A stretch of DNA of 64,000 nucleotides from a virus. The DNA is taken from IMG/VR virus record IMGVR_UViG_3300033233_000019, positions 1 through 64,000 of that record; one strand, written 5' to 3'. Shown here in pieces: positions 10,270 to 10,655 of the stretch. A model generated the notes under the pieces. The model was not told the origin of the DNA. It saw nothing but the letters and a program-made list of their open reading frames with translations, and made no database searches. The position numbers and the translations under genes are program-made. Position 1 is the stretch's first letter; each line of letters starts with the position of its first letter.

Positions 10270-10655
10270 TCAGGCCACTGGAAACGGGCCAGTGGAAATC
10301 CACCAGCCCATGACCGAAACGCGATTGGGAAGCTATGGCTGGACAGTTACACATTAGCTGCTTGATGTGTCTGTGCCAAACGAAATACCAGATGCTCGAC
10401 TTCACGGATCGCGGGGAATTGAACCCCGTCCGCTTAATCGCTTCCCAATATGGTGATGCATCGACACCCCTGAGACGGTGACCACGTAGGATGCCGCACG
10501 AAGTTACGATGCATCAAACGGACACAGGATAGCAGCATAGGCGTTTTGGTTCGCCTATGATCCTGCGCCCGTCTCAGGCATCGGCTTATGGCAGGGTGCC
10601 GCGTGGTGTCACCGACTCCCTGCCAGCCTCTCATATCGAATCCTGACGCGATTTA
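10270..10655 (-). ncRNA. candidate large structured non-coding RNA (unassigned)
   Basis: Numerous long complementary segments and a T-loop hairpin; no credible ORF. Confidence 0.55.

What the first reader, a model, noticed from the sequence alone, without database searches (positions are those of the whole stretch)
10270..10655. ~400-nt densely paired non-coding element with competing helices, a pseudoknot and a T-loop
Seen (minus strand): AAUCGC/GCGAUU closing stem; UGGCAGGG/CCCUGCCA, whose loop CGGUGAC(AC)CACG can pair with distal CGUGGUCACCG; ACGGGCGCAGGAU/AUCCUGUGUCCGU enclosing CAUAGGCG/CGCCUAUG; UGAUGCAUCG/CGAUGCAUCA; alternative CCUGAGACGG/CCGUCUCAGG; long-range AUUGGGAAGC/GCUUCCCAAU (10 bp); and a CGGGG-UUCAAUU-CCCCG T-loop hairpin. 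It lies at the 3' end of the hammerhead-punctuated operon and has no credible ORF. Inference: an unclassified large phage ncRNA or conformational switch.
Basis: seen in the sequence. Interest (0 to 1): 0.7.

Follow-up and report, generated by a model that had tools for sequence, protein, structure and literature searches.

The report
Orphan folded phage RNA with T-arm
The gene-free stretch at the end of a phage operon almost certainly encodes a large, tightly folded non-coding RNA carrying a copy of the tRNA "T-arm", but it matches no known RNA family and no relative could be retrieved, so its function is still a guess.

Summary
Observation confirmed. The 386 nt fold at -176 kcal/mol, z = -8.6 against shuffles; the plus strand gives z = -3.7. 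There are three perfect 10-bp stems where 0.05 are expected. These are the lowest-energy windows of the 98.9-kb phage genome.

The open frame is non-coding by codon usage, was not gene-called, and has no protein relatives. No Rfam family matches; only the T-arm scores, far below threshold.

New here:
- The 5' ~55 nt is duplicated after another stop codon at 11110-11167.
- Both long-range pairings fall on one 18-nt strand and can coexist as a double pseudoknot.
- Two mutually exclusive 3' hairpins follow.
- tmRNA-like motifs are present, but every tmRNA membership test fails.

No homologue was found in GenBank phages, IMG/VR, GTDB genomes, 80 metagenome loci or 25 distant relatives, so covariation is untested. 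Close relatives exist, but their DNA could not be fetched.

Verdict: a real orphan structured RNA and a candidate new class. The mechanism (a T-arm-tagged stable 3' RNA) is inferred only.

The parts
10599..10657 (-). 5' module, copy A. It starts at the UAA stop of the 87-aa gene and contains the AUCGC, GAUUCGAUAUG and UCGGUGACACCA blocks.
   Evidence: Alignment A3. Sequence model R2 scores it 55.5 bits. Motif searches.
11110..11167 (-). 5' module, copy B (paralogue). It starts at the UAA stop of the 81-aa gene and ends at the RBS of the 62-aa gene. The blocks GAUUCGAUAUG-N16-UCGGUGACACCA are identical to copy A.
   Evidence: 54.3 bits. The shared blocks are read in different frames after the two stop codons, so conservation is at the nucleotide level (reading).
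10583..10628 (-). Hairpin H1 (GGCU+GGCAGGG / CCCUGCC+AGCC) with 21-nt loop L1.
   Evidence: MFE folds. Pair probability 1.00.
10516..10574 (-). Long arm H2 (15 bp including 3 G-U) plus H2b (8 bp), with loop AACCAAAA.
   Evidence: Pair probability 1.00. The G-U pairs make it specific to the minus strand.
10454..10516 (-). Hairpin H3 (10 bp, palindromic core GAUGCAUC on both strands) with a 43-nt loop L3.
   Evidence: Pair probability 1.00.
10469..10486 (-). 18-nt strand inside L3. It is complementary to loop L1 (10614-10602, 7+4 bp, 'PKa') and to the H1/H2 linker (10578-10569, 10 bp, 'PKb'). The two partners overlap by only 3 nt.
   Evidence: Coordinates. Duplex energies are -18.9 and -21.4 kcal/mol. 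The stem CCUGAGACGG is one of the three perfect 10-bp stems.
10324..10449 (-). 3' domain: a three-way junction closed by the 10-bp helix H4 (10449-10440 / 10333-10324). It contains the T-arm hairpin and a second hairpin (10390-10336).
   Evidence: Pair probability 1.00. Model R1.
10404..10433 (-). tRNA-type T-arm: 5-bp stem CGGGG/CCCCG with 7-nt loop UUCAAUU (10428-10412), extended by GCGGA/UCCGU across a CGA bulge.
   Evidence: The only Rfam alignments are to T-arms. The 20-mer GGACGGGGTTCAATTCCCCG occurs in ordinary tRNAs and in one sequence with a tmRNA-type 3' end (my reading; ARAGORN called none) in GTDB genomes.
10320..10650 (-). Terminal closure: CGCG 10650-10647 pairs with CGCG 10323-10320, stacked on H4. 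The 8-nt direct repeat AAUCGCGU sits at both ends (10653-10646 and 10326-10319).
   Evidence: Pair probability 0.99. One 8-nt repeat in 386 nt is expected by chance (my estimate).
10275..10311 (-). Two mutually exclusive 3' hairpins that share CCACUGG. X is 10311-10284 (12 bp, -19.7 kcal/mol). Y is 10295-10275 (7 bp, -9.6 kcal/mol), terminator-like, followed by CCUGAUGUUU.
   Evidence: Terminator scan. Energies.

Best explanation
The stretch 10653-10275 (minus strand) is a genuine non-coding RNA domain of about 335-380 nt. It is transcribed as the tail of the minus-strand operon, whose gene order is: AAA+ ATPase, 717-aa protein, 81-aa, 62-aa and 87-aa genes.

Its proposed fold is compact:
- a 55-nt 5' module that also exists as a stand-alone copy one gene upstream;
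- three long hairpins (H1, H2, H3) tied together by a loop-loop and a loop-linker pairing on one 18-nt strand;
- a 3' three-way junction that displays a canonical tRNA T-arm;
- closure of the whole RNA by pairing of its two ends.

The most likely mechanism is inferred, not shown. The domain would survive as a stable RNA at, or cut from, the 3' end of the operon transcript. The T-arm would serve as a tRNA-mimicking handle for host proteins that recognise tRNA elbows, such as processing or modification enzymes. This would mark or protect the RNA end, or titrate such a factor.

The RNA belongs to no described family.

My probabilities: about 0.75 that it is a real structured RNA, and about 0.3 for the T-arm-handle / stable 3' RNA mechanism.
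For: Shown:
- Exceptional, strand-specific folding energy, an excess of long perfect stems, and the lowest MFE in the genome.
- Helix probabilities near 1.
- G-U pairs occur in H2 and in the 3' hairpin. On the other strand these would be A-C mismatches.
- The open frame scores -0.28 to -0.34, against 0.22 +/- 0.125 for the phage's own genes. The three upstream small genes score 0.15-0.25 with a clear frame preference.
- None of the ORFs inside the element is a called gene in the source record.
- A HMMER search of 1.8 billion representatives found only repeat-protein noise.
- No sigma-70-like promoter lies on the minus strand between the upstream genes and the element. A terminator-like hairpin lies at 10295-10275.
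- The T-arm is canonical: it aligns to T-arm positions of the Rfam models and is identical to the T-arms of real tRNAs.
- The 5' module is conserved between the two copies in blocks (11/11 and 12/12 identical within a stretch that is 76% identical overall), in different reading frames.

Inferred: stability, processing, protein partners.
Against: - No homologue was found, so there is no covariation and no evidence of conservation.
- There are no RNA-seq data.
- A single sequence with many long perfect stems can also arise from recent local duplications or inversions.
- The T-arm has no convincing acceptor stem beside it. The best candidates are 5-6 bp with mismatches or a bulge, at -7.5 to -8.8 kcal/mol. 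RNase P/Z-type recognition is therefore doubtful.
- The phage encodes no SmpB, RtcB, RNA ligase or reverse transcriptase that could point to a partner.
- Hairpin X is far more stable than the terminator-like hairpin Y. The transcript may therefore read through, and the element may be intercistronic rather than 3'-terminal.
Confidence: 0.4

Rival explanations
1. Passive 3' untranslated region. The element would be a stack of stable hairpins plus a terminator that only shields the last cistrons from 3' exonucleases. Upstream gene boundaries are instead cut by hammerheads. The T-arm would be incidental.
For: - It sits after the last gene of the co-oriented block, before a terminator-like hairpin and a separate promoter-like site for the next gene.
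- Sub-threshold hammerhead matches lie at two upstream boundaries.
Against: - About 335 nt is far more than protection needs: closure of the two ends, 10-bp long-range helices, an 18-nt strand matched to two distant partners, and a canonical T-loop.
- The 5' module is kept as a second copy at an internal gene boundary.
Confidence: 0.2
2. Cis-regulatory switch (attenuator or riboswitch-like leader). Alternative folds of the element would decide between hairpins X and Y, and so control read-through into the downstream RlpA-like gene and the genes beyond it.
For: - X (10311-10284) and Y (10295-10275) share CCACUGG and exclude each other.
- CCAGCC 10341-10336 can pair with the 5' strand of X (read from the sequence).
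- CCUGA 10578-10574 has two alternative partners.
Against: - No known riboswitch or T-box model matches.
- Y has a poor U-tract.
- X is about 10 kcal/mol more stable than Y.
- The downstream gene has its own TTGACA-17-TAGGCT site.
- There is no ligand or effector candidate.
Confidence: 0.12
3. Decayed relic of a tRNA or tmRNA gene or gene cluster that now has no function of its own.
For: - The T-arm is canonical.
- The 5' end reads N7-GUCA-GGAUUCGAU, much like the 5' end of the phage's own tmRNA coding piece (GGGCGUG-UCAA-GGUUUCGAC).
- The T-arm is preceded by GCGGAC, as in that tmRNA.
- The lineage carries permuted tmRNAs and tRNAs in such gaps, as in Tunturi_3.
- One frame reads an ANQNAYAA-like peptide (my reading).
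Against: - A relic would lose structure. This is the most stable fold of the genome.
- The tmRNA tests fail: there is no G1-G3 or G3-U70, no ACCA, no P2a pairing after UUCGA, no stop after the tag-like peptide, and no CM match beyond 9.5 bits on the T-arm.
- ARAGORN at default settings finds nothing.
Confidence: 0.08
4. Coding sequence: either a 72-codon read-through extension of the 87-aa gene (the frame stays open directly after its UAA) or a 66-aa protein starting at AUG 10634, which has an AGGA 6-7 nt upstream.
For: - The frame 10652-10437 is open and in phase with the 87-aa gene.
- There is a Shine-Dalgarno-like AGGA before the AUG.
Against: - The codon score is -0.28 / -0.34, more than 4 sd below the phage's genes.
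- The product is Arg/Cys/His-rich with no homologue.
- It was not gene-called.
- UAA is a strong stop.
- The same motif in copy B is followed by a stop after 4 codons and lies in another frame.
Confidence: 0.04
5. DNA-level element: a replication origin, or an attP-like recombination site that uses a tRNA 3' half.
For: - A tyrosine recombinase lies 3 kb away.
- An AT-rich segment with a 19-nt palindrome and CTAA repeats follows the element.
Against: - The fold asymmetry between the strands and the G-U pairs point to RNA.
- The 22-mer of T-arm plus 3' flank has no match in 185,579 species genomes.
- The recombinase is not adjacent.
- The cumulative GC-skew minimum lies near 32-33 kb, not here.
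Confidence: 0.04

Closest known systems
tmRNA tRNA-like domain (Rfam RF00023 / RF04321 tmRNA_permuted)
   Same: - The RNA is phage-encoded and multi-pseudoknotted.
- The T-arm is preceded by GGAC.
- The 5' motif UCA-GGAUUCGAY sits 4 nt after a 7-nt segment whose last 5 nt can pair with the bases after the T-arm.
- The same phage carries a true permuted tmRNA at 24696-24948 (56 bits).
   Different: - There is no GGG start, no G3-U70 and no ACCA.
- Nothing pairs like helix P2a.
- There is no resume codon with a stop-terminated tag.
- The Rfam models align only to the 17-nt T-arm (9.5 bits against a gathering score of 47).
- No SmpB gene is present.
tRNA-like processing modules in long transcripts (mascRNA/menRNA, Rfam RF01684)
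   Same: A T-arm-based tRNA look-alike lies near the 3' end of a longer transcript. This is the only Rfam family with a hit spanning more than the T-arm (18 bits).
   Different: - The family is eukaryotic.
- The score is far below the gathering score (42.5).
- The proposed acceptor stem here has mismatches.
- There is no cloverleaf.
Large ornate phage/prophage ncRNAs (GOLLD, ROOL) and the T4 stable RNAs species 1 and 2
   Same: These are phage-borne, large, intricately folded RNAs of unknown function. Complementary loops and palindromic cores (GAUGCAUC, CGCG) could in principle pair between molecules, as in the cryo-EM assemblies of GOLLD and ROOL (bioRxiv 10.1101/2024.12.08.627333; abstract only, seen).
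   Different: - There is no CM match.
- It is about half their size.
- It is not beside tRNA genes.
- No family could be assembled.
Bacterial Y-RNA-like YrlA (tRNA-mimicking ncRNA encoded beside Rsr/Ro60; from my own knowledge)
   Same: A non-coding RNA that displays a tRNA-type T-arm. Such RNAs occur in some phages.
   Different: - No Y_RNA or YrlA hit was found.
- The adjacent 717-aa protein shows no TROVE or vWA signal.
- The element is about 3 times larger.

Membership tests
tmRNA (one-piece or permuted) | Match to the Rfam covariance models | tested here: not met
   No hit at gathering. At E<=10, only the 17-nt T-arm matched, at 9.5 bits. The phage's real tmRNA scores 56 bits.
tmRNA (one-piece or permuted) | Acceptor stem with G1-C72, G3-U70, discriminator A and 3' CCA | tested here: not met
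   The 5' segment is AAAUCGC and the 3' segment is GCGAUCC-GUGA. This gives two A-C mismatches, A3-U70 and no ACCA. Duplex energy is only -8.8 kcal/mol.
tmRNA (one-piece or permuted) | Helix P2a between the bases after UUCGAC and the bases before GGAC; resume codon and a stop-terminated tag | tested here: not met
   AUGAGAGG after UUCGAU has no complement in GAUUAAGC before GGAC. The ANQNAYAA-like frame runs on without a stop.
tRNA | Cloverleaf detected by ARAGORN or Rfam RF00005 | tested here: not met
   Default ARAGORN finds none there. Only relaxed, intron-permitting settings give poor models. RF00005 gives no hit.
Group I intron | Match to RF00028; interruption of a gene | tested here: not met
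   No hit at E<=10. The flanks are a complete gene and a non-coding spacer.
GOLLD / ROOL / other large Rfam ncRNAs | Match to the family covariance model | tested here: not met
   cmscan of the whole window at gathering, and of the region at E<=10, found none.
Self-cleaving ribozymes (hammerhead, twister, pistol, hatchet, HDV-like) | Match to the family covariance model inside the element | tested here: not met
   No match within 9800-11200 at E<=10. Hammerhead_II matches lie only upstream, at 11421-11493 and 13653-13721.
Conserved structured RNA family (any) | Homologues with compensatory base changes | not testable with these tools

The most novel reading that the evidence does not exclude
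This is the founding member of a new class of large phage RNA. It would have a self-closing, double-pseudoknotted core with a tRNA T-arm, acting as an RNA machine in its own right. For example, it could be a decoy or trap for a host factor that recognises tRNA or tmRNA elbows (including anticodon-nuclease type defences). Alternatively it could be a self-assembling or catalytic RNA. The short copy of its 5' module at 11110-11167 would compete for the same 18-nt receptor strand.
Probability: 0.25. Interest if true: 0.75.

Novelty: categorically new. Interest (0 to 1): 0.5.

Why it matters
Large, intricately folded RNAs without a known job are rare. When solved, they have repeatedly revealed new biology (tmRNA, OLE, GOLLD/ROOL cages).

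This element sits in a barely explored phage lineage. The nearest cultured relatives are Acidobacteriota phages with only 39% DNA-polymerase identity. The same phage also carries hammerhead-like ribozymes at gene boundaries and its own two-piece tmRNA, so it appears unusually invested in RNA-level tricks.

If the fold is confirmed, the T-arm gives an immediate experimental handle: which host tRNA-binding protein does it capture?

At present, though, it is one sequence with thermodynamic support only.

Tried and rejected
**Homologue hunts (all empty)**
- blastn and tblastn against GenBank phages.
- IMG/VR searches with the 717-aa protein, the ATPase and the RlpA-like alignment.
- IMG/VR exact or gapped DNA patterns. 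One search gave 3 hits that share nothing beyond the pattern.
- The single metagenome scan, run with the RlpA-like alignment, returned only bacterial loci of 57% identity or less, without the element.
- GTDB genomes: the 22-mer gave none; the 20-mer T-arm hit ordinary tRNAs and one sequence with a tmRNA-type 3' end, by my reading.
- This scan's own index.
- 25-26 IMG/VR relatives found through DNA polymerase (35-44% identity) were searched with blastn, with covariance model R1 (3' domain), with model R2 (5' module) and with the 717-aa protein. Only self hits came back.
- The unannotated gaps of Tunturi_3 hold tRNAs and a permuted tmRNA but no comparably folded region.

**Tools and data that were unavailable**
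The contigs of the close relatives could therefore not be read. These are the RlpA-like proteins P0008-P0014 at 78-88% identity and the ATPases P0001-P0003 at 56-73%.
- Sequencing runs: no RNA holder is listed. Only the probable source run holds the stretch. The second run matched only the T-arm, at under 90%.

**Readings rejected**
- Protein-space trick: the 72-aa frame searched against 1.8 billion representatives gave only tandem-repeat and WD40 noise.
- A Ro60/Y-RNA-type partner: the 717-aa protein shows no TROVE or vWA signal.
- An RNA-repair or circularisation context: no RtcB or RNA ligase is encoded.
- A mobile element with a target-site duplication: one 8-nt direct repeat in 386 nt is expected by chance.

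Full report
**Setting**
The window is the first 64 kb of a 98.9-kb IMG/VR virus record from a sediment metagenome, rated complete by CheckV. Genes from 1 to about 32 kb run on the minus strand.

The nearest cultured relatives are Tunturiibacter (Acidobacteriota) phages Tunturi_3 and Tunturi_4, with 39% and 34% DNA-polymerase identity. Like this phage, Tunturi_3 encodes a permuted tmRNA.

Upstream of the finding, on the minus strand, lie in order:
- an AAA_5 ATPase (13720-14937);
- a 717-aa protein (11491-13644);
- three small genes: 81 aa (11410-11168), 62 aa (11094-10909) and 87 aa (10916-10656).

All three small genes score as coding by codon usage. Two gene boundaries carry Hammerhead_II matches just under threshold (30.5 and 28.1 bits against 37). 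The stop codon of the 87-aa gene (10655-10653) abuts the element.

Downstream come, in order:
- a terminator-like hairpin;
- an AT-rich spacer with a 19-nt palindrome;
- a TTGACA-17-TAGGCT site;
- an RlpA-like (DPBB) lipoprotein gene.

- The minus strand folds at -176 kcal/mol, z = -8.58. The plus strand reaches only -144.8 kcal/mol, z = -3.73.
- The difference is explained by 17 G-U pairs among 131 pairs.
- Three perfect 10-bp Watson-Crick stems occur where dinucleotide shuffles give 0.05 on average and never more than one.
- H1, H2/H2b, H3, H4, the T hairpin and the terminal closure have pair probabilities of 0.94-1.00.
- Among 1316 strand-windows of 300 nt across the whole genome, the two over the element have the lowest MFE. 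They rank 2nd and 3rd after GC correction.

**It is not coding**
The only long open frame (10652-10437) happens to be in phase with the 87-aa gene, and it contains an AUG with an AGGA upstream.

- The frame scores -0.28 (-0.34 from the AUG), against 0.22 +/- 0.125 for 66-codon pieces of the phage's genes.
- None of the ORFs inside the element is a called gene in the source record.
- A full HMMER search of 1.8 billion representative proteins found only tandem-repeat noise.

**Anatomy**
The proposed fold has four parts.

1. A 5' module (10657-10599) has a paralogue at 11167-11110.
   - The paralogue also starts exactly at a UAA stop, that of the 81-aa gene.
   - The blocks AUCGC, GAUUCGAUAUG and UCGGUGACACCA are identical while the spacer has diverged.
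   - A sequence model built from the two copies finds only these two sites in this genome and none in 25 relatives.
   - The blocks fall in different frames after the two stops, so the constraint is on nucleotides.
2. Three hairpins follow: H1, H2 and H3.
   - The 43-nt loop of H3 holds an 18-nt strand (10486-10469).
   - Its 5' part matches the H1 loop (7+4 bp, -18.9 kcal/mol).
   - Its 3' part matches the H1/H2 linker (10 bp, -21.4 kcal/mol).
   - The two partners overlap by only three bases. With the three weak basal pairs of H2 opened, both pairings and all three hairpins can coexist as a coaxial double pseudoknot.
   - The same linker (CCUGA) can instead pair with UCAGG 10646-10642, as in the MFE fold. 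The 'competing helices' are therefore real as possibilities.
3. A 3' three-way junction is closed by the 10-bp H4.
   - It carries the hairpin CGGGG-UUCAAUU-CCCCG.
   - This is a canonical tRNA T-arm. The 20-mer including GGA occurs in tRNA-Pro, -His, -Ala, -Met and -Gly genes and in one sequence I read as a tmRNA 3' end.
   - The T-arm plus its 3' flank matches no genome of 185,579 species. It is therefore not a copied host tRNA end or an attP core.
4. The two ends pair (CGCG/CGCG) next to H4. Two mutually exclusive hairpins follow: X at -19.7 kcal/mol and Y at -9.6 kcal/mol, the latter terminator-like.

**What it is not**
Rfam 15 gives nothing at gathering. At E<=10 it gives only T-arm alignments: mascRNA at 18 bits and tmRNA_permuted at 9.5 bits. 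ARAGORN finds nothing at default settings.

I noticed tmRNA-like features:
- N7-GUCA-GGAUUCGAU at the 5' end;
- GCGGAC before the T-arm;
- UCC after it;
- an ANQNAYAA-like frame.

I tested these against the phage's own tmRNA and the Rfam consensus. The acceptor would have two A-C mismatches and no G-U or ACCA. There is no P2a pairing, no stop after the 'tag', and no SmpB gene. The resemblance may reflect ancestry or mimicry, but this is not a tmRNA.

No reverse transcriptase, RtcB or RNA ligase is encoded, and no TROVE-like protein is detectable in the adjacent 717-aa protein. A small tyrosine recombinase lies 3 kb away.

**Homologues**
All searches were negative; the details are under Tried and rejected. 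Close relatives of the flanking RlpA-like gene (78-88% identity) and of the ATPase (56-73%) do exist in metagenomes.

The 87-aa protein has no homologue at all, so synteny around the element may not be conserved. Covariation, the test that matters most, therefore remains undone.

**Interpretation**
I am fairly confident (about 0.75) that this is a real structured RNA made from the minus strand.

Its role is inferred. My leading reading is a stable RNA domain at, or released from, the operon's 3' end. Its T-arm would act as a tRNA-mimicking handle for host tRNA-binding proteins. The rivals are a passive stabiliser, a read-through switch, a tRNA/tmRNA relic, a coding tail and a DNA-level site.

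Because it matches no known family, I rate it as a candidate new class. The interest score is moderate because it rests on one sequence, without conservation or expression data.

Noticed in passing
window 11110-11167 (minus): A stand-alone copy of the element's 5' module lies between the 81-aa and 62-aa genes. This is the one gene boundary of this operon tail without a hammerhead-like match. It can form a small hairpin (CUGGU/ACCAG) whose loop AUCGG can pair with the upstream UCGAU. Copy A has GUCGG at the same place, which keeps the pair as U-G.
   Followed up: partly
window 10239-10257 and 10205-10235 (minus): A perfect 19-nt palindrome (CACUAAUAA-C-UUAUUAGUG) is followed by three CTAA-containing repeats (GCTAATGG, GCTAACGG, ACTAACTGG). 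They lie just upstream of TTGACA (10113-10108)-17-TAGGCT (10090-10085) and the RlpA-like gene. This looks like an operator or iteron region.
   Followed up: no
window 11421-11493 and 13653-13721 (minus): Hammerhead_II matches of 30.5 and 28.1 bits (gathering 37) lie at gene boundaries, with complete cores in the alignments. The two further sites named in the neighbouring finding gave no Rfam hit at E<=10.
   Followed up: partly
window 10652-10437 (minus): The reading frame of the 87-aa gene stays open for 72 codons beyond its UAA stop. Codon usage argues against translation.
   Followed up: yes
window 10653-10916 and 9669-10055 (minus): The 87-aa protein has no homologue among 5.8 billion proteins. 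The adjacent RlpA-like protein has seven relatives at 78-88% identity, with the signal peptide nearly unchanged. The RlpA-like gene may therefore be a separately mobile cassette with its own promoter.
   Followed up: partly
L110:37751-37823 (Tunturi_3 record 87750-87824, minus): ARAGORN reads a tRNA with a four-base anticodon (gaaa) in an enlarged anticodon loop. It lies beside another tRNA-like element and the permuted tmRNA. It is a possible frameshift-suppressor tRNA in a cultured Acidobacteriota phage.
   Followed up: no
window 6819-7355 (minus): A tyrosine recombinase of only 178 aa (catalytic domain alone). Tunturi_3 annotates a similar 183-aa 'integrase'. Its role (dimer resolution or integration) is unknown.
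   Followed up: no
genome 67651-67950 (plus; outside the window): This is the top GC-corrected folding window of the genome. It is a roughly 100-nt intergenic pair of long hairpins after a 432-aa gene, most simply a strong terminator.
   Followed up: partly
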